Source of the DNA: a virus
Strand: one strand, 5' to 3'
DNA: 14,343 nt
Virus genome (UHGV): UHGV-1347164
The notes beneath the pieces are model-generated. The model was not told where the DNA came from and ran no database searches. It was given only the letters and a program-made list of their open reading frames with translations. Below are positions 3-13,956 of this stretch, in pieces; within the stretch, counting starts at the first letter, position 1; every line of letters begins with the position of its first letter. The position numbers and the translations under genes were made by a program.

Positions 3-1271
3 CGCCAGATCGGCGCGACCTTTTACTTTGCCCGTGAAGCCCTGATTGACGCCCTGCTTACCGGACGTAACCAGATTTTCCTTTCTGCCAGTAAGGCACA
101 GGCTCACGTCTTTAAGCAGTACATCATCGACTTCGCCAAAGAAGTCGAGGTGGAGCTGAAAGGTGATCCGATAGTGCTTCCTGACGGGGCCACGCTTTAC
201 TTCCTCGGCACCAATGCCCGCACGGCCCAGAGTTACCACGGCAACCTGTATCTGGATGAATATTTCTGGATCCCGAAATTCCAGGAGCTGCGCAAAGTGG
301 CTTCCGGTATGGCTATTCACAAGAAATGGCGGCAGACCTATTTTTCCACGCCATCCAGCCTGACACACAGTGCTTATCCGTTCTGGTCCGGTGCGCTGTT
401 CAACCGTGGGCGCAACAAAGCCGATAAGGTGGACATCGACCTGTCCCACAGCAATCTGGCCCCCGGCCTGCTGTGCGCAGACGGGCAATACCGCCAGATA
501 GTCACCGTGGAAGATGCGGTGCGCGGCGGCTGTAACCTGTTCGACCTCGACCAGCTACGCATGGAATACAGCCCGGACGAATATCAGAACCTGCTGATGT
601 GCGAGTTCGTGGACGATCTCGCGTCCGTGTTCCCGCTCAGCGAACTGCAGGCGTGCATGGTGGACAGCTGGGAAGTCTGGACCGACTTTCATGCACTGGC
701 CCTGCGCCCGTTTGGCTGGCGCGAGGTGTGGATCGGTTATGACCCGGCAAAAGGTACGCAGAACGGCGACAGCGCCGGATGCGTGGTGGTGGCACCGCCA
801 GCCGTGTCAGGCGGTAAGTTTCGCATTCTTGAGCGTCACCAGTGGCGCGGGATGGACTTCCGCGCCCAGGCTGATGCAATCAAAAAACTGACCGAGCAGT
901 ACAACGTGACCTATATCGGCATCGACTCGACGGGTGTCGGTCACGGGGTTTACGAGAACGTGAAAGCGTTTTTTCCAGCCGTCCGGGAGTTTGTCTACAA
1001 CCCCAACGTTAAAAACGCCCTGGTACTCAAGGCCTACGACATTATCAGCCACCGCCGTCTGGAGTTTGACGCCGGACACACCGACATTGCGCAGTCATTC
1101 ATGGCAATCCGTCGCGCCACCACCGCCAGCGGCAACCGCCCGACCTATGAAGCCAGCCGCAGCGAAGAAGCCAGCCACGCCGATCTGGCCTGGGCAACGA
1201 TGCACGCATTGTTTAACGAACCGCTGCAGGGCGAATCCGCCAATACCAGCAATATTGTGGAGATTTTTTGA
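3..1271 (+). CDS. P: Terminase large (ATPase) subunit, P2 gpP-like; 5-prime partial, open reading frame continues to the window edge
   Basis: Frame of ORF 150..1271 is open with no stop back to position 3 (translation begins RQIGATFYFAREAL...). Large-terminase-like protein immediately upstream of a portal gene, with its TGA overlapping the portal ATG (TGATG at 1269-1273). The product is recognised from family resemblance, not from a search. Confidence 0.8.
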   Translation, partial: RQIGATFYFAREALIDALLTGRNQIFLSASKAQAHVFKQYIIDFAKEVEVELKGDPIVLPDGATLYFLGTNARTAQSYHGNLYLDEYFWIPKFQELRKVASGMAIHKKWRQTYFSTPSSLTHSAYPFWSGALFNRGRNKADKVDIDLSHSNLAPGLLCADGQYRQIVTVEDAVRGGCNLFDLDQLRMEYSPDEYQNLLMCEFVDDLASVFPLSELQACMVDSWEVWTDFHALALRPFGWREVWIGYDPAKGTQNGDSAGCVVVAPPAVSGGKFRILERHQWRGMDFRAQADAIKKLTEQYNVTYIGIDSTGVGHGVYENVKAFFPAVREFVYNPNVKNALVLKAYDIISHRRLEFDAGHTDIAQSFMAIRRATTASGNRPTYEASRSEEASHADLAWATMHALFNEPLQGESANTSNIVEIF

Positions 1272-2317
1272 TGGGAAAGAGTAAGAAGAACCGCGCTGCG
1301 GCGACGAAACAGATCCAGCTTAAAAGTCAAACTACAGCCGAAGCATTCAGCTTCGGCGATCCCGTTCCTGTTCTGGACCGCCGAGAACTGCTGGACTATG
1401 TGGAATGCGTACAGACAGATCGCTGGTATGAGCCGCCAGTAAGCTTTGACGGACTGGCGCGCACCTTCCGCGCCGCCGTGCATCACAGTTCACCAATTGC
1501 GGTGAAATGCAACATTCTGACCAGTACCTACATCCCTCACCCGCTGCTCAGCCAGCAGGCTTTTTCACGTTTTGTGCAGGACTATCTGGTATTTGGTAAC
1601 GCCTACCTGGAGAAACGCACGAACCGCTTCGGTGAAGTTATCGCCCTTGAGCCTGCTCTGGCAAAATACACCCGACGCGGGTTAGACCTGGATACCTACT
1701 GGTTTGTGCAATACGGTATGACAACCCAGCCGTATCAGTTCACGAAAGGCAGCATTTTTCATCTGATGGAACCGGACATCAACCAGGAGATCTACGGCCT
1801 GCCAGGTTATCTTTCTGCCATTCCATCAGCCCTGCTCAACGAGTCCGCCACGCTGTTCCGCCGGAAGTATTATATTAACGGCAGTCATGCAGGCTTCATC
1901 ATGTACATGACCGATGCCGCGCAGAACCAGGAGGATGTGAACAACCTCCGCAATGCAATGAAAAGTGCCAAAGGGCCAGGCAACTTCCGCAACCTGTTTA
2001 TGTACTCTCCTAACGGCAAAAAGGACGGGCTTCAGATTATCCCGTTGTCAGAAGTCGCGGCGAAGGATGAGTTTCTGAATATCAAGAACGTGAGCCGGGA
2101 CGACATGATGGCGGCACACCGTGTGCCGCCGCAAATGATGGGGATAATGCCTAATAATGTTGGGGGCTTTGGTGATGTGGAGAAGGCTAGTCGTGTTTTT
2201 GTCCGCAACGAACTGATGCCCCTGCAGAAACAGCTACAAGAACTTAACTATTGGCTAGGCGAAGAAGCAATACGCTTTGATGCCTACTCCCTAAATTTCA
2301 CAAACGATTCTTTTTGA
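1271..2317 (+). CDS. Q: Portal protein, P2 gpQ-like
   Basis: About 348 aa from the ATG at 1271 (the track starts 3 nt earlier at a TTG). Size and position after the terminase gene match the P2-family P-Q operon. GC-rich like the rest of the backbone. Confidence 0.8.
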   Translation: MGKSKKNRAAATKQIQLKSQTTAEAFSFGDPVPVLDRRELLDYVECVQTDRWYEPPVSFDGLARTFRAAVHHSSPIAVKCNILTSTYIPHPLLSQQAFSRFVQDYLVFGNAYLEKRTNRFGEVIALEPALAKYTRRGLDLDTYWFVQYGMTTQPYQFTKGSIFHLMEPDINQEIYGLPGYLSAIPSALLNESATLFRRKYYINGSHAGFIMYMTDAAQNQEDVNNLRNAMKSAKGPGNFRNLFMYSPNGKKDGLQIIPLSEVAAKDEFLNIKNVSRDDMMAAHRVPPQMMGIMPNNVGGFGDVEKASRVFVRNELMPLQKQLQELNYWLGEEAIRFDAYSLNFTNDSF

Positions 2318-2322
2318 TAAAT

Positions 2323-2344
2323 ATGCTGGGCCCCCCCCCGGCAT
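2323..2344. terminator. Candidate bidirectional stem-loop (ATGCTGGG / CCCGGCAT arms) containing a C9 homopolymer, lying exactly between the stops of the convergent Q and GmrSD-like genes
   Basis: Read directly: 8-bp arms with one G-T wobble around a C-rich loop. Q stop is at 2315-2317 and the minus-strand stop at 2345-2347. Flanks are only moderately T-rich, so intrinsic terminator function is uncertain. Confidence 0.3.
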
Positions 2345-4099
2345 TTACTCACGCCCCAATTTCCATACTGAATTATACGATAAAATACTTAGTTCAGCAG
2401 CTCTTGACCTCATATGATCGGGCGTCCATTCTCCTTGATATTTATTTTCAAATTCATCAATAAAAATTTTAACTAGCGCATATTGTGATTGTTTATAAAT
2501 TTCAAGCTTATCCACAACAGACTTATTTCCAGCTTTTTCATTTAATTCTTTTGAAAGTGGTAATAAATTTCCTATCATGCTATATACTTCAGAATCCCCC
2601 ACACTCTGAGGCTGAATATGCTCTAATGTTAATGAATCAGGCATATACTCCCCCGTTTTCATGTGATGTAACTCAAGTCTATTAAAAATGTACTGAATCA
2701 ACCTTTTATTTTTCAACTCTTGATTTGAAAATTTAAGCATAACAAACTTTTCAACAAACATATTAATGTCTGGTTTTCTCTTCACCAACATTTCAAGCAA
2801 AGACTTTATTACTTGTCTATTACTAGCTTTAGTAGAACCTTCATCCACTAAAGCCCTAGCAGCTTTAGCATACGCACTTTCAATACCTGATGGTCGCAAT
2901 GAACAAATAGCATTAAACATAAAATGAAAGCGTTCAATTGACAGCACTGCATTATTCATATCAACAAGTTTTAGCGTTCCTCTTGCTCTTGCCTTAAATA
3001 AAGATAACAAAAATGGTTTATTCTGAGATATGTTAAACAGCCTTAATGCCTGCAAACCTCGATAAACTGGTTTCATTTCCAGTTCAGGAAAATCCTGTTC
3101 TGTAGGCGATGATATTTTCACATATATCTCGGCATCTGAAAGTAGCTCATCAATGAACGCTGAAGCATCAATGTCGCCTTTTTTCCACTTATCCAGAAAA
3201 GCTTTATAAAGAGTGTCACTACTTACATAAGAATATTTTGACACCCACCAATGACGGATAAATGTCTCGATAGAACCGACACCATTACGACTAGCAATTA
3301 TTTGCCTAATTTTATTCCATTTAGTTTTTGCATCATCATCAGGATGTGTGCCATTCAGTTTCTTAAATAATTTGTTTTTTATAAGATCTACATAACTTAA
3401 GTTTAATCCCCTAGCATTCAGAGTTTCAAAGATTGTATAAGCTTCATCTTCATCATTAACTGTAATATAAATCACTTTCAGATACCGTAGAACTTGATCC
3501 CGCACAGCCTTCAACGCTTCCAAGTAGATAAATTTCTCTCTATCTACTCCTAATGTCTGGCAAAGATTATCTTCTGAAAGATACTCAGTTAAATCATTAT
3601 ATGAAGATTGCAAGTTTCTTTCTTCAAGGGACTCCGGCCCTTCATTTCTCTTATCAATATGCTGAATGTTGTTTTGAAAGTATGGCTTAGGAGTTTCATT
3701 AACTAATTTAAAAAAAGGTCTGCCATCGTCATCCATACCAGATATATAATTATTATATATTGATTGAGCTACAGCCAACTCATTTATCAACTTAAATTTA
3801 TCACATAATGCTGATAACAATATAGTAAGAGTCGTAAGACGTTGTTGACCATCTACAATCATCAGCTCAGAGCTAGTTTCCTGCCCGACCAAAACGAGAG
3901 CACCGATGAAATACTCATCATATTGATACTGCCCATCCTCCTGGTAATGAATATTGGAAACTATATCATGCCAAAGTTCACTTACTTGTTCCTTCCCCCA
4001 AGAATATTCTCTTTGGAATCTAGGGACTATATATTTTTTATTTACAGATAACACGTTTGTTAAGGTTCGAGCATTTGCTTGCAGTTCCACTGAGGCCAC
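2345..4099 (-). CDS. GmrSD-family type IV (modification-dependent) restriction endonuclease-like protein: N-terminal DUF262 (ParB-like NTPase/nuclease fold) plus C-terminal DUF1524 (His-Me finger nuclease)
   Basis: N-terminal motifs FQREYSW and DGQQRLTT are the DUF262 hallmarks. C-terminal LEHIQPQS ... GNLLPLSKELNEKAGNKS matches the DUF1524 His-Me finger pattern. 584 aa, visibly AT-rich against the GC-rich phage genes. No early ATG: the start is probably GTG at 4099 or the GTG at 4090, which is preceded by AGGTGG. Confidence 0.7.
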   Translation of the reverse strand: MASVELQANARTLTNVLSVNKKYIVPRFQREYSWGKEQVSELWHDIVSNIHYQEDGQYQYDEYFIGALVLVGQETSSELMIVDGQQRLTTLTILLSALCDKFKLINELAVAQSIYNNYISGMDDDGRPFFKLVNETPKPYFQNNIQHIDKRNEGPESLEERNLQSSYNDLTEYLSEDNLCQTLGVDREKFIYLEALKAVRDQVLRYLKVIYITVNDEDEAYTIFETLNARGLNLSYVDLIKNKLFKKLNGTHPDDDAKTKWNKIRQIIASRNGVGSIETFIRHWWVSKYSYVSSDTLYKAFLDKWKKGDIDASAFIDELLSDAEIYVKISSPTEQDFPELEMKPVYRGLQALRLFNISQNKPFLLSLFKARARGTLKLVDMNNAVLSIERFHFMFNAICSLRPSGIESAYAKAARALVDEGSTKASNRQVIKSLLEMLVKRKPDINMFVEKFVMLKFSNQELKNKRLIQYIFNRLELHHMKTGEYMPDSLTLEHIQPQSVGDSEVYSMIGNLLPLSKELNEKAGNKSVVDKLEIYKQSQYALVKIFIDEFENKYQGEWTPDHMRSRAAELSILSYNSVWKLGRE

Positions 4100-4166
4100 C
4101 TACTTTAGTTGTTTGTATTACACAGTTTTATAGCATTGGAGTTTGAATGACAACCCGTTGCGCGCG

Positions 4167-4185
4167 CTCGTATCCCCGCCACGCC
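4167..4185 (-). other. cos-like cohesive-end motif (minus strand GGCGTGGCGGGGATACGAG)
   Basis: Minus-strand 19-mer matches the 186 cohesive end as I recall it (GGCGTGGCGGGGAAAGCAT) at 15 of 19 positions, and P2 (GGCGAGGCGGGGAAAGCAC) at 13 of 19. Orientation is the one expected for a P2-type left end reading toward Q. Exact ends and identity are unverified. Confidence 0.45.
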
Positions 4186-4564
4186 TGCCCGCTTTATGCA
4201 GTGGTTTTCATGCACATGCATGACATGAGCAAAAGCCCGCCAGTTCTGGCGGATCTGAGCAAAGACGATCCTCAATCGATCATGCGATTTCATGCAGCAT
4301 AGTCATGCACTGTCAAGGAAGTGAAAATCCGTATCTGAATGGCCACTTGAAAAACGGATCATACGGGTTTACAAAGATGAATGTTCGCTGTGAACGGGAA
4401 GCGGAAGTTAACTTTCAGATAACATAATCCATATGCACGAGAACCTCTAAAATAGAATGGGACACCTAAGCGGGGTACTTACAACGATTCTTTCCATATT
4501 CACAGTTAACACTCTGTTTGGCGTATTTTTATTCAAATAGCAAACACCAATAAAAGGAGTTTCC

Positions 4565-4900
4565 ATGAACAATATTCCCCCTATACCACAGTTAGGAATT
4601 TATGTCTCAAAAATCGATCCCACCCTACGTATCACTGTAACCGATGTTGATATTGTTGATGGTGAGGATGATTCTCCTGATGATGAATTGTTTTATTTAG
4701 TCCACTGGATCGAGGGGGAAGATGAAAGTGATATGACAGCAATGGGATTTGAGCTAGACCCAGTAGAGTGGCAGGCTTTCGTTGAATCTGAGCAATTAGT
4801 GTTTGAGCGTGATCCGTACATGGATTCAATCCCCGAAAATTCAAACTTGGCAAAGATTCGGGATTTTCTCATGAAGACTAAACAGAATGATCATTCGTAA
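4565..4900 (+). CDS. Hypothetical, highly acidic small protein (111 aa); function unknown
   Basis: Clean ATG with an AGGAG Shine-Dalgarno 6 nt upstream (aaaAGGAGtttccATG). About 26 Asp/Glu against 7 Lys/Arg by manual count. AT-rich; lies in the accessory region between the cos-like site and the end of gene A. Confidence 0.6.
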   Translation: MNNIPPIPQLGIYVSKIDPTLRITVTDVDIVDGEDDSPDDELFYLVHWIEGEDESDMTAMGFELDPVEWQAFVESEQLVFERDPYMDSIPENSNLAKIRDFLMKTKQNDHS

Positions 4901-5092
4901 GTGTAAGCATCCATCAGGAAAATGGTTTTGTAAGTGAATCATCAACTTTTAGAGAGTCTCAGACACTCCCACTTCTGCTTCTGACACAAAGCGGACGATC
5001 ACTTATCAAAATAACCGCCCACCTTACGCCTTATTTCACTCATTGCCCAAACTAGCCCCCATCAGAATGAATCCTCCTGGGGGCAACATTTC

Positions 5093-5326
5093 TTAATGCA
5101 GCCAGCTGTCGTCCTCCCACACCTTCTGCATAATTTTCATCACTTGTTTTCTTTCTTCATCCAGTTGCAGTCCGGTTAGTTCCACACCGTTAGAGCTACC
5201 TTTGCGAATGCGAATTACCGTTTTGGGATACAGGGGGCGCAGATTGCGGTAAAGCTCGGATTCAAGTGCGTCCAGGGTAGACTGGCTAATCTTCTGCTCT
5301 TTATCGATCATTATTTCAATGCGCAT
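5093..5326 (-). CDS. dinI: DinI-family protein (SOS-inducible RecA modulator homologue), about 77 aa from the internal ATG
   Basis: From Met25 of track ORF 5093..5398 the protein reads MRIEIMIDKEQ...DALESEL...KIMQKVWEDDSW, which aligns by eye with E. coli DinI (MRIEVTIAK...DALAGEL...ETWESADDW). A GAGGTG Shine-Dalgarno sits 6 nt upstream of this ATG and overlaps the stop of the preceding ORF. Confidence 0.7.
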   Translation of the reverse strand: MRIEIMIDKEQKISQSTLDALESELYRNLRPLYPKTVIRIRKGSSNGVELTGLQLDEERKQVMKIMQKVWEDDSWLH

Positions 5327-5336
5327 AAAAGTCACC

Positions 5337-5525
5337 TCAGCTGATGACATCCATTGAGCGGTTGTATTCGTGGCTTCTGATTTTTGCCATGAGTTCATCA
5401 GTCAATTCAGAAACCCACTGCAGAGCCAGCCCCTTCTCTTCATCACTACACTCACTAGCCGCTACAAGCTTAAGAAAAAAATCAATGCGCTGGAGCTTCA
5501 AAGACTCCAAAAAATAGTCCTGCAT
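5337..5525 (-). CDS. Hypothetical small protein (62 aa), first gene of a putative LexA-regulated operon; candidate Tum-like antirepressor component
   Basis: ATG at 5525-5523 is preceded by GGAGG (GGAGGaaaaATG). The track's longer 96-aa version starts at a TTG and would run through the LexA box and promoter, so the shorter form is preferred. Its TGA stop is embedded in the Shine-Dalgarno of the DinI-like gene, suggesting translational coupling. Confidence 0.5.
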   Translation of the reverse strand: MQDYFLESLKLQRIDFFLKLVAASECSDEEKGLALQWVSELTDELMAKIRSHEYNRSMDVIS

Positions 5526-5678: not shown

Positions 5679-8093
5679 TTAATACAGGTTCCGCCACTTA
5701 TCATCTTCCTTCAGACGCTGGTTCCGATAGAAGATACGCAGGCCTGCTCCTGACGGAATACTGCCGCCGCGAAGGAGCAAATCGACTTCTTTCTCGCTGC
5801 CATCAAATCCCCTGGACTTCAGTTCATAGACGAGCTGCTGTCGCTGATGGTCTGTAATTCGCTGTTTGTAGTCTTTACGCCGTTTCGGTTTCACCTGGCG
5901 TAACCTTGCAGCCAGTTCCCGGCGCTCTTTTTTGCTCATACTGTGCAGGTAATCGTGCAACTCCTTGTCATCCATGCGGGTAATGTCCGTTCTGGTGTCC
6001 CCATCAGCTGATTTATCTTTCTCCTGTTGGTTCAAATTTTCAGCAAGGGGACAGTTATTGCCACGAGTCCAAGGGGCGCAAGCGCCCTGGTCGGCTGCCG
6101 CCTCCTGAACGTCAACGGCTTTACGAACCATTTTCCACTTCACTGCATGAGTGCAGATCTTGCCCTCTGCAATGGGTGACCAGATGCCATAAATACGAAT
6201 GCCGTGATCGCCATAGGCGGTCGGCTCTTCGTTGATTTCATAAGCGGTTCTGATGAGGTGATATTTACGGGGAACCAGTACGCCGCCCTGCTTCATGATG
6301 TAGGTGGCAAAACAACCAGCATCAGCAGCAGCCAGGATTGCATCAAGGCGCGGGTTATCCAGTACCGGCGCACCTGCTTTTTTGTCACCCTGTTGCCTTG
6401 CCGCCTGACCAGCCAGCAATCGCAGTTCACGGTAAGCCTGACGCCCCGGAATGCCAAAGAAGCGGAATTGCTGAACACGATGCAGAGACGCCCAGGCATT
6501 TACGTATTCAGCGTTATCACGCAGGGATTTACCCGTTTCCTTGCTGATCTCGCCAGCCAGACCACGCCCGTCAATGTTCTTACTGATGTATTTCGCGATA
6601 TAGCTTGTTGGCGTACCTTTGCGCGGGTTTATCAGCTCAGACTTAAAGCGTGGTCCCGTGTTATTGCCCAACTCCTCGCGGTCTTCACGGATGGCAAACT
6701 TACGCAGTAATGCAGTGATGGCGCGGCGGTCTTTTTTACGCATGAAACACATGAGATGCCAGTGCACAGTACCGTCATGATGCGGCTCAGCTACCCGCAC
6801 GCCATACCAGCGCAACCCGGCTTTATGCATAGCCTTACGAAATGCAGCAAACATGCCGACCAGATAATCGCTACTTTGTCTTACCGTCGCGTTTGTCCAG
6901 GTCGGGTTTGGTCTGCCGTTATTGAGCGTGGAATGGAAACGCGACGGACAGGTGATAGTGTAGAAAACGGCACAGTCACTGCGCATTTCCGCGATAAGCT
7001 CCAGACCTTTAACACAGGCCATCATCTCATTGCGGCGATGCGCAGGGTTGCTGCTGCTGGCGTTTACCACATCCTCCATGTCCAGCGTGTCGCCGTCTTC
7101 GTTCACCAGTTCATGAGAACGGAAAAACTCCAGCGACTTACGGCGCTGCTCACGTTTATGCAACACGGCTTCATAGCTGACATAGGGAGATGCTTTTTTG
7201 CTGACAAGGCAGACAGCACGCAACTGCTCTTCCCGCCATTCGCAACGCATCTTCCATAATTTCCGATACCACCAGTCGGCACACAACATACGCGCCAGCG
7301 AACCCGGGATGAGTTCATAGGGCACTGGTTTGCGGCGGTTTCTTTTCCGACGAAGTTTCTCAAACGCAGGCGGGATAACATCCAGACGCAGGGTTTCCGC
7401 TGCCACCTTTTCCCATGTCTTGCGGATTTCTTCTGGCTTAACGTCATCGGTGGCATACAAATCACCACAAGCGGCCTCAAGACACATGCTCATATGCGCT
7501 GCTACCAGGGTGGACAGGCGTTTTACCTGATCCTGACTCATTTCAGGCAGGATCAGCAGGCCCTCAAGCCCTTGATGGCTTGCCATAAAACGGAAAGAAG
7601 CGGATAGCTGACTGTCGCGTACATACTCCAGTCGCTCCAGACATGGCTTAATCGTCTCACGCAAATAGCGGGAATAAGCCTTTGGCCTGCCCAGGCTGCT
7701 GAAGTATTCGATACGTTGCATCAGCGGCTTGCTGATGTGGGTAGGCTGGGCGCTGACGTCCGACAGAATGACCATGTCCGGGTCAAAACGCTGCTGCTCA
7801 TGCGCCAGCTTTGCCCGGCTAATGAGCTTATCCTGCTCCATTTCGCGCTGGACAGGATCACGGGATTCATTAAAGAAATAACGTTCCCAGACCTGATCAC
7901 TCAGTGCCTCGCGGCGCTGCTGTTCCTGCTCGTTATCGGCAGCGTACAGAGTGATCATGTTTGAAAGTGCAGACTCCGGCGCAACTTCCTCCGGTTCCAG
8001 ATAAGGGTTAATGGCCTTTTTCGGGCCGTTCCATGAAAATGCTGCGGCAGCCTCGTTAAAGCCGCTAGAGTTGCTCATATCGTCATTACTCAT
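5679..8093 (-). CDS. A: Replication initiation endonuclease, P2 gpA-like rolling-circle (HUH) initiator
   Basis: 804 aa, ATG start at 8093-8091. Contains an HUH-type motif (TVHWHLMCF) and a tyrosine motif (YIAKYISK). Size and position downstream of the early operon match P2/186 gene A. GC-rich. Confidence 0.85.
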
Positions 8094-8947
8094 ACACGCA
8101 CCTCGTACACAGCAGAACTATCCACGCCACGCGAAGGATCAAATCCCATCCAGCAGCGCGGCCCGGAAACAGCAATGATTTCTGTTGCAGATTTACTCTC
8201 GCCAGCTGACACGCCGATGCTGCGTTTTGCCTTGATGTAGTGGTGAGTGAAATTGCGATACAGCGAACGGATCAGGGATGTGTCACTGTTAGAAACAATG
8301 ACCGGATGTCCTTCTGATGACCGATGTTCAAGAACAGATGCCAGGTGATACTGGTCATCTTCAGTGAAGCCGTCAGTGTGATAGCCGGAAAACGTACCGT
8401 CATACGGCGGATCGCAATACACCACATCCCCCGCCTTCAACATCGCCAGCGTTTCATCAAAGCTGGCGCAGATAAACGTTGCTCGCTGGGCCTTTTCTGC
8501 AAATGCGCGAATTTCTTTTTCAGGGAAATACGGATTTTTATAATTACCGTAGGGAATGTTGAAATGCCCGCTCTTGTTATAGCGACATAAACCACGATAA
8601 CCGTGACGATTGAGATACAGGAAATATATCGCCTTCATGAAATCAGTAATTTCAGTTGAGTAATTAAACTCCTGCCTTATGTTGTAATAAGCCAGCTCAC
8701 TGTTTGCTTCCTCAAATAAAACTCTGGCACGAGATATAAACGCTTCGCAATCAGCGGCAATCTTTTTATAGAGGTTGATTAAATCAGGATTAATATCCGC
8801 AACCAGATAGCTGGGGTAATCCGTCTCCATCATCACAGCACAGGAACCCGCGAAAGGTTCAACCAGTCGCGGGCCAGCAGGAAGGTGTTTTTTCAGTTCG
8901 GACATAATGGCGGTTTTATTTCCCGCCCATTTCAGGATGGTGCTCAT
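8090..8947 (-). CDS. dam: DNA adenine methyltransferase (Dam-like, N6-adenine MTase)
   Basis: From the internal ATG the protein begins [11 protein letters not shown], the typical Dam N-terminus, and contains the DPPY catalytic motif. The track ORF starts upstream at a TTG. Its TGA overlaps the ATG of gene A, and its ATG overlaps the stop of the upstream TraR-like gene. Confidence 0.8.
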
Positions 8948-9171
8948 ACAGCACCTCCGTTGTAATGTTTGCCTTTCAGCTCTGCGATCTCCTGGCAGGT
9001 AATGCAAAGCTGCACTCCCGGAATGGCGCGTCGTCTTGCTGGCGGAATTGGCGCTTCACATTCAATGCAAAGCACGCGTGACACGCCCGGCGTTCTGGCA
9101 CGGGCAGCACGGATATGACGCTGGCGTTCTTCTTCAACGCGCTGCTGTACGAGATCCATTGCATCAGCCAT
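8944..9171 (-). CDS. TraR/DksA-family C4 zinc-finger protein
   Basis: 75 aa with CIEC-x17-CITC, a C-x2-C ... C-x2-C zinc finger typical of TraR/DksA-like proteins found in P2-family early operons. ATG start at 9171-9169; stop overlaps the Dam start. Confidence 0.7.
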   Translation of the reverse strand: MADAMDLVQQRVEEERQRHIRAARARTPGVSRVLCIECEAPIPPARRRAIPGVQLCITCQEIAELKGKHYNGGAV

Positions 9172-10761: not shown

Positions 10762-10850
10762 AAGGCAACATTCCTTATCAGTATGGCTTGTGGCGAGCCG
10801 TAGTTTGTCGTGATTAGTTGTGAAGGCTCCAAAAGAACACTTCTGGTTCA

Positions 10851-10879
10851 ACTTTAAGATCGCTTTTGGAATCTGTCAA
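10851..10879 (-). promoter_or_regulatory. Candidate early lytic promoter (pR-like) in the apl-cI switch region
   Basis: Minus strand has a consensus -35 TTGACA (10879..10874), a 17-nt spacer and -10 TAAAGT (10856..10851), oriented toward apl-cII. The placement is by eye only; operators and the opposing pL were not resolved. Confidence 0.3.
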
Positions 10880-10905
10880 CGGTTTTAGATTTCTTTGGAG
10901 GACTT

Positions 10906-11481
10906 ATGGATTTCAGCAGCGGTGGTAAGAAAGTCATTGAACGTCTAGTTGAGGCGTATGGGTTCTCTACTAGACAGGCTCTTTGCGATCACTTGGGAGT
11001 ATCCAAGAGCACTATGGCTACACGTTACATGCGAGACATCTTCCCTGCAGATTGGGTTTTGCAATGTGCTATCGAAACTGGTTATTCACTAGAATGGTTG
11101 TCATTCGGTATAGGTGATAAAAATATTTCAAATACAAATGCGCAAATTTTAGTACCAAAGAAAAAATTAATTTCTGGAACACTAATTGAAGATGGGGCAT
11201 ATGTTTTTGATAAAGCATTCTTACCTGAAAAAATATGTAACCCATTCATCATTGAAGATCTGGATAACGAATATATATGTAGTTTTGAATATGATGATAT
11301 AAGCGATGGATTGTGGCTAATAGGTATCGACGAAAAAATTTCGGTCCGAACCCTGACCCGCTTACCTAATAACAGATTATATGTTGAAGGAGGAAATCGT
11401 GGTTTTGAGTGTTCTAGAGACGAAATACAGATTGTTGGAATTGTGTGGTGTTGCATACTAAGAAGAGCAGAAAAATTTTAA
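10906..11481 (+). CDS. cI: Immunity repressor CI (186 CI-like, N-terminal HTH; no obvious S24 Ser-Lys autocleavage motif)
   Basis: 191 aa, ATG at 10906 with GGAG 5 nt upstream. Divergent from apl-cII across a 144-bp switch region. N-terminal HTH-like segment (TRQALCDHLGVSKSTMATRYM); C-terminal part ends in a LexA/CI-like beta-rich tail (NRLYVEGGNRGFECSRDEIQIVGIV) without a GDSM-type serine motif. The C-terminal half is AT-rich. Confidence 0.65.
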   Translation: MDFSSGGKKVIERLVEAYGFSTRQALCDHLGVSKSTMATRYMRDIFPADWVLQCAIETGYSLEWLSFGIGDKNISNTNAQILVPKKKLISGTLIEDGAYVFDKAFLPEKICNPFIIEDLDNEYICSFEYDDISDGLWLIGIDEKISVRTLTRLPNNRLYVEGGNRGFECSRDEIQIVGIVWCCILRRAEKF

Positions 11482-11512
11482 CACACAATATATTAAATAA
11501 CTGGAGTTCTAA

Positions 11513-12844
11513 ATGCCTATTGAATATACGTTTGATTATCGTGACGAGTTCCTTCGTAAGCCTATTGCTGAAAAATTAATATCGCTACTTGACTCTGATA
11601 TTAACTTATCTCCACTGGTTATAGATGGCGGATGGGGCACGGGGAAAACAGAGTTTTGCAAAAAAGTTGCAAATCTAATTGAAAGCAATAATCAAAAACA
11701 TAAAGTAGTTTACATTGATGCTTTCGCTGAAGATCATAATGATGCCCCAATTTTGACGTTAATGGCTGGTGTTGCTGCACTTCTTCCCGAAAATGAACGA
11801 AAGGAGTTAATAAATAAAACACTTCCAGCAATACGTTTTGGTTTGAAAACCATTTTCAAAGCAGGCACTGGATGGGTGTTAAAACAAAATGCAGATGACA
11901 TTGTTGATGGCTTCGAAGATGCTATCAAAGAAGCAACTTCGAGTGCAATTGACAGTACAATTGAAACATTATTAGACGATCATATAGAGGCGCAGAAAAA
12001 CATCGAGACACTGAGAAGTACAATATCGCATCTTACAGAGGAATATAAAATAACGATTTTTATAGACGAACTGGACAGATGTAAACCTACATTCGCTCTT
12101 TCAATCATAGAAAATATCAAACACATTTTTGAAATAAAAAATTTAAATTTTGTATTGGTTGCAAAGACTCAACAACTCAAGGCATCAATAAGGCATCTGT
12201 ATGGTTTATCCATAAATGCAGATCAGTATTTAGACAAATTCATTAAGTTTACATTTGTATTGCCAGATACATATAAACCAGATAACTATACACCTGCATA
12301 CGCATCTGTTGCTTTATGGGGAATATTAAAAAATGATTCTCAAAAACTGCAAGAAGTAGACGAATCATGCGGGCATATCATAAAAACGATAATACAAAGG
12401 GCTAAGTTGTCTTTACGTGAAGTAGAAACATTATCACGCCACTTTGAAATATATCAGGTGCTATCTCAATCTGGAATTGGTCCAGGGAAAGTATTTGGTT
12501 ATTCATTATATCGAATGTTAGGGGTAATATTATACTCTCTAAATCGCCCTTTGGCATTAAGTTATCTAGATAATTCTGTGGATGCAGAAAGCATTATCAA
12601 AACCTTAGGCTTTGAATATTTAAGTTACGATGAAGATATTTATAGGATAGATAATACTGAATGTGCTATTTATGGGATCGTACTGGACTATATTGATACA
12701 ACATCTCCATTCTTTATAAAAGATGATGAAACCAGAAGAAAATGGACTGAACGTGCTACCTATGATTTCTTTCAAAACGGCTTAGACGCAGTGCCTCCCC
12801 GAACACTTGTTTCGTCCACCATTGAAGCTTTAATGTTGAACTAA
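11513..12844 (+). CDS. KAP-family P-loop NTPase (candidate prophage-encoded defence or lysogenic-conversion gene)
   Basis: 443 aa with Walker A GGWGTGKT and the KAP-type Walker B IFIDELDRC, separated by a moderately hydrophobic segment (APILTLMAGVAALLP...). GGAG 6 nt upstream of the ATG. Strongly AT-rich; starts 31 bp after the cI stop and ends 80 bp before int. Confidence 0.8.
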   Translation: MPIEYTFDYRDEFLRKPIAEKLISLLDSDINLSPLVIDGGWGTGKTEFCKKVANLIESNNQKHKVVYIDAFAEDHNDAPILTLMAGVAALLPENERKELINKTLPAIRFGLKTIFKAGTGWVLKQNADDIVDGFEDAIKEATSSAIDSTIETLLDDHIEAQKNIETLRSTISHLTEEYKITIFIDELDRCKPTFALSIIENIKHIFEIKNLNFVLVAKTQQLKASIRHLYGLSINADQYLDKFIKFTFVLPDTYKPDNYTPAYASVALWGILKNDSQKLQEVDESCGHIIKTIIQRAKLSLREVETLSRHFEIYQVLSQSGIGPGKVFGYSLYRMLGVILYSLNRPLALSYLDNSVDAESIIKTLGFEYLSYDEDIYRIDNTECAIYGIVLDYIDTTSPFFIKDDETRRKWTERATYDFFQNGLDAVPPRTLVSSTIEALMLN

Positions 12845-12871
12845 AGATGTATTATTGACTGATTTCATACA

Positions 12872-12924: not shown

Positions 12925-13956
12925 ATGGCAGTACGAAAACTCACCACAGGAAAATGGCTTTGCGAATGTTACCCCGCCGGACGTAGTGGGCGTCGTGTAC
13001 GTAAACAATTCGCCACCAAAGGCGAAGCACTGGCTTTTGAGCGTCACACGATGGAAGAAACCGAAGCAAAGCCCTGGCTGGGTGAATCCGTGGATCGTCG
13101 AACACTGAAAGACGTGGTTGAGCTATGGTTCAAACTACATGGTAAATCTCTGACAGCTGGGCAGCATGTCTATGACAAATTGCTGTTGATGGTTGACGCT
13201 CTGGGCAATCCTCTTGCAACCGATCTCACCTCTAAAATGTTTGCCCACTATCGAGATAAACGCCTGACAGGTGAGATCTACTTCAGCGAGAAATGGAAGA
13301 AAGGAGCAAGCCCGGTCACCATTAACCTGGAGCAAAGCTATCTAAGTAGTGTTTTTAGCGAACTATCCCGCCTGGGCGAATGGTCGTATCCAAACCCACT
13401 GGAGAACATGCGAAAATTCACCATCGCAGAAAAAGAGATGGCATGGCTTACCCATGAGCAGATTGTTGAACTGCTGGATGATTGCAAACGTCAGGACCCA
13501 ATTCTGGCACTGGTAGTCAAGATATGCTTAAGCACAGGCGCACGCTGGCGAGAAGCAATAAACCTTACCCGATCACAGGTGACCAAATACCGAATTACCT
13601 TTGTAAGAACGAAGGGGAAGAAAAACAGAAGCATCCCTATCAGTAAAGAGCTTTATGAAGAGATCATGGCGCTTGATGGGTTCAATTTCTTCACAGACTG
13701 CTATTTTCAATTTTTATCCGTGATGGAAAAAACGTCTATCGTGCTCCCTCGCGGTCAACTGACACACGTTCTGCGCCATACGTTTGCGGCGCACTTCATG
13801 ATGTCGGGTGGAAATATCCTGGCCTTACAAAAAATTCTCGGGCATCACGATATAAAAATGACTATGCGTTACGCACATCTGGCACCGGATCACCTTGAAA
13901 CTGCATTACGGTTTAATCCGCTGGCAACACTACCAACATCAATAGCAAGTTTTTGA
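12925..13956 (+). CDS. int: Tyrosine site-specific integrase (P2/186 Int-like)
   Basis: 343 aa. The C-terminal catalytic region LTHVLRHTFAAHFMMSGGNILALQKILGHHDIKMTMRYAHLAPDH contains the R...H-x-x-R...Y pattern of tyrosine recombinases. GGAGGG Shine-Dalgarno upstream of the ATG. Position at the end of the lysogeny operon matches P2/186. Confidence 0.85.
   Translation: MAVRKLTTGKWLCECYPAGRSGRRVRKQFATKGEALAFERHTMEETEAKPWLGESVDRRTLKDVVELWFKLHGKSLTAGQHVYDKLLLMVDALGNPLATDLTSKMFAHYRDKRLTGEIYFSEKWKKGASPVTINLEQSYLSSVFSELSRLGEWSYPNPLENMRKFTIAEKEMAWLTHEQIVELLDDCKRQDPILALVVKICLSTGARWREAINLTRSQVTKYRITFVRTKGKKNRSIPISKELYEEIMALDGFNFFTDCYFQFLSVMEKTSIVLPRGQLTHVLRHTFAAHFMMSGGNILALQKILGHHDIKMTMRYAHLAPDHLETALRFNPLATLPTSIASF

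What the first reader, a model, noticed from the sequence alone, without database searches (positions are those of the whole stretch)
2345..4099. GmrSD-like type IV restriction enzyme between portal gene Q and the cos-like site
The 584-aa protein has DUF262 motifs (FQREYSW, DGQQRLTT) and a DUF1524 His-Me finger (LEHIQPQS, GNLLPLS...NEKAGNKS). This is the architecture of single-chain GmrSD/BrxU/SspE-type modification-dependent nucleases. The gene is an AT-rich island with abrupt composition boundaries. The known P2 cargo site (old/tin) is on the A side of cos, whereas this gene is on the Q side. Its length is close to that of P2 Old, but the domain content is unrelated, which suggests replacement of one defence gene by another of different mechanism.
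Basis: partly seen in the sequence, partly recalled or inferred. Interest (0 to 1): 0.7.

Follow-up and report, generated by a model that had tools for sequence, protein, structure and literature searches.

The report
Prophage-carried GmrSD-like defence nuclease
A P2-type prophage carries, next to its DNA-packaging site, one intact gene for a GmrSD-like nuclease (nearest tested relative: HEC-06) that most likely protects the host from other phages; the gene family, the insertion hotspot and this exact protein are already in the literature, so the finding is real but ordinary.

Summary
Window 2345-4099 (-) is an intact ORF with GmrSD_N/DUF262 (1e-38) and GmrSD_C/DUF1524 (1.2e-11). All quoted motifs are present. 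GC is 0.34 against 0.55 for the flanking P and Q genes. The true start is probably the second GTG (4090), giving 581 aa. A cos-like 19-mer lies at 4167-4185, so the gene is on the Q side of cos.

The best defence-family match is PADLOC HEC-06 (3.8e-90, full length). HEC-06 is an experimentally validated stand-alone GmrSD-like defence. The tested protein is 26% identical over the full length, and the four residues whose mutation abolished its defence are conserved here. The nearest solved structures are DndI, SspE and BrxU.

None of this is new. The locus is the published P2 gpA-gpQ hotspot. The identical protein, WP_000422658, is listed there as DUF262/DUF1524 cargo. The Q-side slot is occupied in 51 of the 60 related species-level prophages in which cos could be located.

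"Replacement of Old" is not literal. Old's slot, on the A side of cos, is a separate slot that here holds a different 771-bp insert.

Modification dependence is inferred from relatives and was not shown for this protein. Low interest.

The parts
2345..4090 (-). CDS of the GmrSD-like (HEC-06-like) nuclease, 581 aa. The mechanical ORF extends to a GTG at 4099 (584 aa).
   Evidence: M-E-L start invariant in 22 homologues. Protein identical to RefSeq WP_000422658 in E. coli MB51.
3365..4057 (-). N-terminal DUF262 / GmrSD_N (ParB-like NTPase) domain. Includes the FQR motif and DGQQR (nt 3839-3853).
   Evidence: Pfam PF03235, 1e-38. F25-Q26-R27, D80-G81-Q82-Q83-R84 and F221/E222/N225 invariant in 22 homologues (motif positions).
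2390..2731 (-). C-terminal DUF1524 / GmrSD_C His-Me finger nuclease domain. E490-H491 lie at nt 2618-2623; N508 and N517 follow.
   Evidence: Pfam PF07510, 1.2e-11. E490, H491, N508, N517 invariant. E-H aligns with E471/H472 of tested HEC-06.
4096..4101 (-). Shine-Dalgarno-like AGGTGG, 5 nt upstream of the GTG at 4090.
   Evidence: Read directly from the sequence.
2323..2344 (.). G+C-rich hairpin between the convergent Q and nuclease genes. Probable bidirectional terminator.
   Evidence: RNA fold of 2310-2360 gives -12.9 kcal/mol. The consensus terminator scan did not list it, so this is an inference.
4167..4185 (-). cos-like 19-mer GGCGTGGCGGGGATACGAG, the predicted cohesive-end site.
   Evidence: 4 mismatches to 186 cos and 5 to P2 cos, with similar flanks. 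The same 19-mer in L001 and L003 and a one-base variant in L002; its 12-nt core found in 60 of 80 related species-level loci.
4160..4311 (.). Conserved cos region. Only 7 nt beyond the 19-mer are conserved on the Q side; more than 100 nt are conserved on the A side.
   Evidence: Conservation profile over 54 unique loci. BLASTN breakpoints at 4157-4160 and 4308-4311.
2212..2317 (+). 3' end of portal gene Q that varies together with the cargo. This is the left boundary of the exchanged cassette.
   Evidence: Homology to L002/L003 stops at 2229/2211. The C-terminal ~28 aa of Q differ between relatives carrying different cargo.
1268..2317 (+). Portal gene Q, a flanking core gene.

Best explanation
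The gene encodes a stand-alone, single-chain GmrSD-like nuclease of the HEC-06 group. It is carried as lysogenic-conversion cargo in the cos-proximal hotspot of a P2/186-like prophage.

Inferred mechanism, by analogy with characterised relatives: the N-terminal ParB-like DUF262 domain binds and hydrolyses NTP through DGQQR and controls the C-terminal DUF1524 His-Me finger nuclease (E490/H491, N508, N517). The nuclease then nicks or cleaves incoming phage DNA, most likely DNA with modified bases such as T-even hydroxymethyl- or glucosyl-hydroxymethyl-cytosine. The unmodified host and prophage DNA would be spared. The lysogen would thus be protected from competing phages.

Shown here: the domain architecture, the conserved catalytic residues, the fold, the family assignment, the cargo status and the absence of a linked partner gene in the contexts examined. 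Inferred: expression in the lysogen, nuclease and NTPase activity, and which DNA feature is recognised.
For: - Both Pfam domains score above the gathering cut-off.
- PADLOC HEC-06 is the best and full-length hit, 3.8e-90.
- The tested HEC-06 gene was recovered from E. coli S3 (first 399 nt of the gene 100% identical). Its protein is 26% identical over the full length, 127 bits, E 2e-35. PRFQR, DGQQR, FETLNARG and LEHIxP all align.
- In HEC-06, the Q79A, R80A, E471A and H472A mutations abolish defence (bioRxiv 10.1101/2024.01.29.577857). The equivalent residues Q83, R84, E490 and H491 are invariant in 22 homologues.
- HEC-06 is reported to block T4. A Bacteroides homologue protected against T-even phages but not the cytosine-unmodified T4-GT7 (bioRxiv 10.1101/2025.02.28.640651).
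- The AF2 model has pLDDT 84. Its only significant PDB fold matches are DndI, SspE and BrxU.
- The slot is variable. Close relatives carry a retron St85 system, a Hypoth_Ymh gene or AIPR/Abi genes in place of this gene.
- The hotspot is published (PMC9122126), and its Table S5A lists this exact protein.
- A 55%-identical allele sits in the same slot in Klebsiella prophages. Other homologues stand alone in chromosomes. No dnd or ssp genes are adjacent in any context examined.
Against: - No experiment exists on this protein. It is only 26% identical to the tested HEC-06.
- By sequence profile and by fold, the nearest solved relatives are DndI and SspE. These sense self phosphorothioation and attack unmodified DNA, which is the opposite logic to a type IV enzyme.
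- PADLOC 'Orf5' (DndI-type) models score nearly as well as HEC-06, 258 vs 301 bits.
- No consensus sigma-70 promoter was found between cos and the start codon. Expression in the lysogen is therefore assumed.
Confidence: 0.72

Rival explanations
1. It is a self-modification-sensing nuclease of the DndI/SspE type. It would nick unmodified invading DNA and be held off host DNA by a host-encoded backbone or base modification such as phosphorothioate.
For: DndI (PDB 9JFL) is the best solved match by profile (1.3e-22, full length) and by fold (3.9e-14). SspE comes next. DndI itself hits the HEC-06 HMMs at about 200 bits, so the two groups are sisters. The DndI mechanism is described in PMC11662687.
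Against: No dnd or ssp genes are in the window or next to homologues in four other contexts. The gene travels on a phage between hosts. The window protein scores only 115 bits on the true DndI model PDLC02701, and by BLASTP scores 64+29 bits against DndI versus 127 bits against HEC-06. The phosphorothioate-sensing Y25 of DndI is an invariant F here, as in HEC-06. HEC-06 works alone in E. coli K-12. Per the DndI paper, cell filamentation persisted in a mutant lacking dndBCDE and dndFGH but not when dndI was also deleted.
Confidence: 0.08
2. It is a defence nuclease triggered by a phage cue other than DNA modification. This would be abortive-infection style: an NTPase switch releases a non-specific nuclease.
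For: Specificity is untested for this protein, which is only 26% identical to HEC-06. Neighbouring cargo in this hotspot is often Abi-like, for example retrons and AIPR.
Against: The characterised stand-alone members of the superfamily discriminate DNA chemically. These are GmrSD and BrxU (modified DNA) and the HEC-06 Bacteroides homologue (T-even phages but not T4-GT7).
Confidence: 0.13
3. It is not a defence gene. It would be a phage nuclease used in the phage's own cycle, or a decaying remnant.
For: None specific. The gene lies next to cos and the packaging genes.
Against: It is absent from most close relatives, which are otherwise about 95% identical and carry unrelated cargo there. The ORF is intact and all catalytic residues are invariant. 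The copy in MB51 differs by 1 nt and no amino acid. The composition is foreign.
Confidence: 0.03

Closest known systems
HEC-06 (Hma-embedded candidate 06; PADLOC; Payne et al. 2024 bioRxiv 10.1101/2024.01.29.577857)
   Same: Single-gene system of about 560-580 aa. DUF262 + helical linker + DUF1524. Full-length HMM match at 3.8e-90. PRFQR, DGQQR, FETLNARG and (L)EHIxP motifs are shared. The residues essential for HEC-06 defence are conserved. A near-identical copy of the tested HEC-06 gene (first 399 nt 100% identical) also sits in a prophage, a Rac-like element in E. coli S3.
   Different: Only 26% identity. Different genomic niche: the P2 cos-proximal slot rather than an Hma-embedded or Rac-like site. 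This protein has not been tested.
DndI (PDB 9JFL; PADLOC 'Orf5'; PMC11662687)
   Same: Same length and architecture. Best solved match by sequence and by fold. DGQQR and the EH..N..N motifs are present.
   Different: DndI is co-transcribed with dndFGH and works with IscS-DndBCDE as a phosphorothioate sensor. No such partner is here. DndI Y25 corresponds to F25 here. BLASTP similarity is limited to the two end domains.
SspE (PDB 6JIV/7DRS)
   Same: DUF262 + DUF1524 and a related fold (Foldseek 1e-12).
   Different: SspE is 771 aa and depends on SspABCD phosphorothioation. Sequence similarity covers only the first ~100 residues.
BrxU / GmrSD (type IV restriction; PDB 7P9K; PADLOC mREase_IV)
   Same: Same superfamily and domain order. 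Stand-alone and modification-dependent, which is the logic proposed here.
   Different: Very distant. Profile versus 7P9K gives E 0.3 and fold E 3e-5. The mREase_IV HMM matches the N-terminal domain only. Not BREX-embedded.
P2 old/tin cargo and the P2 gpA-gpQ hotspot (Rousset et al. 2022, PMC9122126; Vassallo et al. 2022, PMC9519451)
   Same: Cos-proximal variable region of P2-like prophages that carries anti-phage genes. This exact protein is listed in Table S5A.
   Different: Old and tin lie on the A side of cos, while this gene lies on the Q side. There is no sequence relation to Old.

Membership tests
GmrSD-like (DUF262-DUF1524) nuclease superfamily | N-terminal DUF262/ParB-like domain above the Pfam gathering score | tested here: met
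   PF03235, 133.9 bits vs cut-off 33.2.
GmrSD-like (DUF262-DUF1524) nuclease superfamily | DGQQR NTP-hydrolysis motif | tested here: met
   D80-R84 present and invariant in 22 homologues.
GmrSD-like (DUF262-DUF1524) nuclease superfamily | C-terminal DUF1524 His-Me finger with (D/E)H...N...N | tested here: met
   PF07510, 45.2 bits vs cut-off 23. E490, H491, N508, N517 invariant.
GmrSD-like (DUF262-DUF1524) nuclease superfamily | Fold matches solved members | tested here: met
   AF2 pLDDT 84. The only significant PDB hits are DndI, SspE and BrxU. Global TM is only 0.3-0.47; the HEC-06 authors report that AlphaFold misplaces the DUF262 domain relative to the rest in this family, which may contribute.
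GmrSD-like (DUF262-DUF1524) nuclease superfamily | NTP-dependent cleavage of (modified) DNA | not testable with these tools
   Needs biochemistry.
HEC-06 | Full-length match to the PADLOC HEC-06 HMMs as best defence family | tested here: met
   PDLC04154, 3.8e-90, residues 1-581 vs profile positions 1-566 of 569. The DndI-type 'Orf5' models are close behind at 258 bits.
HEC-06 | Residues shown essential in HEC-06 (Q79, R80, E471, H472) conserved | tested here: met
   Pairwise alignment with the recovered HEC-06 gene product. The equivalents are Q83, R84, E490 and H491.
HEC-06 | Acts alone, with no linked partner genes | tested here: met
   Single gene between Q and cos. Homologues stand alone in the contexts examined.
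HEC-06 | Confers phage resistance (reported for T4) | not testable with these tools
   Experimental. Shown only for proteins at most 26% identical.
DndI / SspE phosphorothioate-sensing nucleases | Genetic linkage to dnd or ssp modification genes | tested here: not met
   None in the window or in the loci fetched (L007-L015).
DndI / SspE phosphorothioate-sensing nucleases | Phosphorothioate-sensing Tyr before the QR motif (DndI Y25) | tested here: not met
   Invariant F25. Tested HEC-06 also has F. F is also hydrophobic, so this is only weakly discriminating.
BrxU | Close sequence similarity to BrxU and embedding in BREX | tested here: not met
   Profile vs 7P9K gives E 0.3. There are no BREX genes in the window.
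OLD family nuclease (P2 Old) | Sequence similarity to P2 Old (annotated AAA family ATPase, exonuclease) | tested here: not met
   BLASTP vs P2 Old gives E 0.37. No OLD or TOPRIM Pfam hit.
P2 gpA-gpQ cos-proximal hotspot cargo | Lies between Q and A, and is replaced by unrelated genes in otherwise near-identical phages | tested here: met
   The exact protein is listed in PMC9122126 Table S5A.

The most novel reading that the evidence does not exclude
The most novel reading not excluded has two parts. First, this protein and its close homologues (82-89% identical in Enterobacter and Klebsiella, 52-56% in cyanobacteria) may form a distinct subfamily, 26% identical to HEC-06. Its target could be neither hmC/ghmC DNA nor phosphorothioate, for example another phage hypermodification or a non-DNA cue. 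Second, the very sharp cargo boundary, 7 nt from the cos cleavage site and about 100 nt inside the 3' end of Q, could reflect a cos-end-driven cassette-exchange mechanism.
Probability: 0.15. Interest if true: 0.45.

Novelty: already known. Interest (0 to 1): 0.15.

Why it matters
It matters little beyond annotation. The result confirms that this prophage carries accessory genes in three variable positions: a candidate defence gene on the Q side of cos, another between cI and int, and an uncharacterised ORF on the A side of cos. It allows the RefSeq label 'DUF262 domain-containing protein' to be refined to 'HEC-06-like GmrSD-family nuclease'.

The protein could be a convenient natural test case for the specificity of a divergent HEC-06 relative. 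The hotspot, the family and this protein's presence in the hotspot are already published.

Tried and rejected
- NCBIfam gave no hit.
- A cos search with the P2 19-mer at up to 3 mismatches found nothing. The site was found only after allowing 5 mismatches and comparing with 186.
- The consensus promoter scan found nothing between cos and the start codon. The best hand-read candidate is TTGTCA (4153-4148), then N15, then TATAAA. It is weak, so no promoter is claimed.
- The 50,697 deposited phage genomes hold no close homologue; the best is 27% identity.
- Literature searches combining GmrSD with 'P2-like' found no paper. Vassallo et al. do not mention DUF262.
- The idea that the gene replaced Old was rejected on position and on sequence.
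- A functional link to the prophage Dam methylase (8090-9007) was considered. It was dropped because Dam is present in the relatives examined, whatever their cargo.
- The small ORFs inside or overlapping the gene (2485-2685 +, 3842-4051 +, 4105-4293 -) were treated as spurious. The last one spans the conserved cos region and is a pseudogene call in RefSeq.

Full report
**What is there**

The window is the early/late junction of a P2/186-like prophage. Its gene order is:
- terminase P (150-1271 +, cut at the window edge)
- portal Q (1268-2317 +)
- the gene in question (2345-4099 -)
- a cos-like site
- a small insert
- a DinI-like gene (5093-5398 -)
- replication endonuclease A (5679-8093 -)
- a Dam-type methylase (8090-9007 -)
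- cII and apl-like genes
- cI (10906-11481 +)
- a KAP NTPase (11513-12844 +)
- integrase (12925-13956 +)

This layout rests. The nearest deposited phages are Escherichia phage vB_EcoM-813R9 and Klebsiella phage 4LV2017. Both are about 95% identical over roughly 64% of the window, and the unmatched parts are exactly the cargo regions.

**Check of the observation**

Pfam places GmrSD_N/DUF262 at residues 15-245 (1e-38) and GmrSD_C/DUF1524 at 457-570 (1.2e-11). Both are well above the gathering cut-offs.

GC is 0.343 for the ORF, against 0.551 for P+Q and 0.48 for the cos region.

The N-terminus M-E-L is invariant in 22 homologues. The upstream GTG at 4099 lies inside an AGGTGG Shine-Dalgarno-like sequence. 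The real start is therefore most likely the GTG at 4090 (581 aa), as RefSeq annotates it.

A G+C-rich hairpin at 2323-2344 separates the convergent Q and nuclease genes.

**The cos site**

The P2 19-mer is not matched at 3 mismatches or fewer. However, GGCGTGGCGGGGATACGAG at 4167-4185 (-) differs at only 4 positions from 186 cos and at 5 from P2 cos, and the flanks also match.

Its 12-nt core was found in 60 of 80 species-level P2-like loci fetched with the Q protein.

The gene therefore sits between Q and cos. In P2 itself, old and tin lie on the other side of cos, the A side.

**Family assignment**

The best PADLOC match is HEC-06 (3.8e-90, full length). Next come models named 'Orf5' (up to 3.8e-77). 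SspE and mREase_IV match only through the N-terminal domain.

HEC-06 is a validated single-gene GmrSD-like defence. The Q79A and R80A (DGQQR) mutations and the E471A and H472A (EHICP) mutations abolish protection (bioRxiv 10.1101/2024.01.29.577857).

It is reported to block T4. A Bacteroides homologue protected against T-even phages but not the cytosine-unmodified T4-GT7 (bioRxiv 10.1101/2025.02.28.640651).

I recovered the tested gene from a complete E. coli genome, using the partial sequence in that paper's supplement. Its protein is 26% identical to the window protein over the full length (127 bits, E 2e-35). PRFQR, DGQQR, FETLNARG and LEHIxP all align.

In an alignment of 22 homologues, the following residues are invariant:
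- F25, Q26, R27
- D80 to R84
- F221, E222, N225
- E490, H491
- N508 and N517

**Relation to solved structures**

The best solved relative by sequence is PDB 9JFL (1.3e-22, full length). This is DndI, the phosphorothioate-sensing nuclease of the IscS-DndBCDE-DndI system (PMC11662687).

Scoring the DndI sequence against PADLOC showed that 'Orf5' is DndI (922 bits on PDLC02701). DndI also hits the HEC-06 models at about 200 bits. HEC-06 and DndI are therefore sister groups.

An AlphaFold2 model has mean pLDDT 84. Its only significant PDB fold matches are DndI (3.9e-14), SspE (1e-12) and BrxU (3e-5).

Membership of the GmrSD-like superfamily is thus secure, but two mechanistic logics exist within it:
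- Type IV enzymes cut modified foreign DNA. Examples are GmrSD, BrxU and apparently HEC-06.
- Phosphorothioate sensors cut unmodified DNA and are restrained by self modification. Examples are SspE and DndI.

**Why I favour the stand-alone HEC-06 logic**

- The window protein is nearer to HEC-06 (127 bits, full length) than to DndI (64+29 bits, end domains only).
- It scores only 115 bits on the true DndI model.
- The phosphorothioate-sensing Y25 of DndI is an invariant F here, as it is in HEC-06.
- No dnd or ssp genes are in the window or next to homologues. This holds for an E. coli P2-like prophage, Klebsiella P2-like prophages carrying a 55% allele in the same slot, a Pectobacterium chromosomal island and a Leptolyngbya chromosome.
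- The gene rides on a phage that moves between hosts.
- In the DndI study, filamentation persisted without dndBCDE and dndFGH and disappeared only when dndI was also deleted. HEC-06 alone is protective in K-12.

Modification dependence remains an inference for this protein.

**Context and novelty**

Relatives that are about 95% identical elsewhere carry other cargo at this position: a retron St85 system, a Hypoth_Ymh gene or AIPR/Abi genes.

Homology to those relatives stops at 2211-2229, about 100 nt inside the 3' end of Q. It resumes at 4157-4160, 7-10 nt from the cos 19-mer. The C-terminal ~28 residues of Q differ with the cargo.

Of the 60 species-level loci with a recognisable cos core, 51 have more than 300 nt between the Q stop and cos. 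The ORFs there are almost all on the strand opposite Q. Only 9 loci have the short P2/186-type spacing. The Q-side slot is therefore the norm in this lineage, not an oddity.

The whole gpA-gpQ interval is the published P2 defence hotspot (Rousset et al. 2022, PMC9122126; also noted by Vassallo et al. 2022).

The window protein is identical to WP_000422658 of E. coli MB51 (0 amino-acid and 1 nucleotide difference). Table S5A of Rousset et al. lists WP_000422658 as 'DUF262/DUF1524' cargo at this locus.

The island is present at 99% identity in 6 of 5,426 complete E. coli genomes. No close homologue is present in deposited phage genomes.

**The 'replacement of Old' idea**

Old is unrelated in sequence (E 0.37), and its slot is on the other side of cos. 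In this window that A-side slot is separately occupied by a 771-bp insert (4312-5082) holding a 111-aa ORF. The insert is absent from MB51 and from vB_EcoM-813R9. The similar protein lengths are coincidental.

**Verdict**

This is a real, intact, almost certainly functional prophage-borne GmrSD-like (HEC-06-like) nuclease gene in a known hotspot, and it is already catalogued. It is low in interest. The only open questions are its exact specificity and the mechanics of cassette exchange next to cos.

Noticed in passing
window 4312-5082 (ORF 4565-4900 +): A second cargo slot lies on the A side of cos, the position of P2 old/tin. It holds a 771-bp insert (GC 0.41) that is absent from L001 and L003, where the cos region joins the DinI region after 69 bp. 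The insert encodes a 111-aa very acidic protein with no Pfam or PADLOC hit in my scans. Precomputed annotation calls it PF26332/DUF8087. Its function is unknown. An anti-defence or other accessory role is possible.
   Followed up: partly
window 10804-12865 (cI 10906-11481 +; KAP NTPase 11513-12844 +): A third variable region lies between cox/apl and int. It holds an AT-rich cI (GC 0.37) followed by a KAP-family P-loop NTPase (GC 0.35). The NTPase matches Pfam KAP_NTPase at 2.4e-50 and PADLOC candidate PDC-S20 at 1.3e-173. Relatives carry a different cI plus a 'SNIPE associated' / 'chromosome segregation ATPase' gene, or other genes, at this position.
   Followed up: partly
window 2212-2317: The cargo cassette's left boundary lies inside portal gene Q. 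The last ~28-35 codons of Q differ between relatives carrying different cargo, so the portal C-terminal tail appears to be exchanged together with the cargo.
   Followed up: partly
window 4160-4311: The conserved cos region is highly asymmetric. Across 54 unique related loci, only 7 nt (GCGCGCG) beyond the 19-mer are conserved on the Q side. More than 100 nt are conserved on the A side, including TGCATG repeats and a CCCGCCAG..CTGGCGGG hairpin. Cargo therefore abuts the cleavage site almost directly.
   Followed up: partly
proteins P0038-P0116; locus L015: Full-length homologues at 52-56% identity are abundant in cyanobacteria, including Leptolyngbya, Nostoc, Anabaena, Stanieria and Moorena. 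This is an unusually high cross-phylum conservation for a defence gene and suggests horizontal transfer.
   Followed up: no
PADLOC models PDLC02686-02702: The PADLOC family named 'Orf5' corresponds to DndI. The PDB 9JFL sequence scores 922 bits on PDLC02701. DndI also hits the HEC-06 HMMs at about 200 bits, so PADLOC's HEC-06 and Orf5 labels separate sister groups largely by genomic context.
   Followed up: yes
L096 6001-7683: In E. coli S3, a copy of the experimentally tested HEC-06 gene (first 399 nt 100% identical; 30 of 5,426 complete E. coli genomes carry it) sits in a Rac-like lambdoid prophage, near sieB, kilR and recET. This differs from the Hma-embedded context it was named for.
   Followed up: no
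L009-L011 8001-9740: A 55%-identical allele of the same nuclease family occupies the same Q-side slot in Klebsiella P2-like prophages. The family has therefore entered or diversified in this slot more than once.
   Followed up: no
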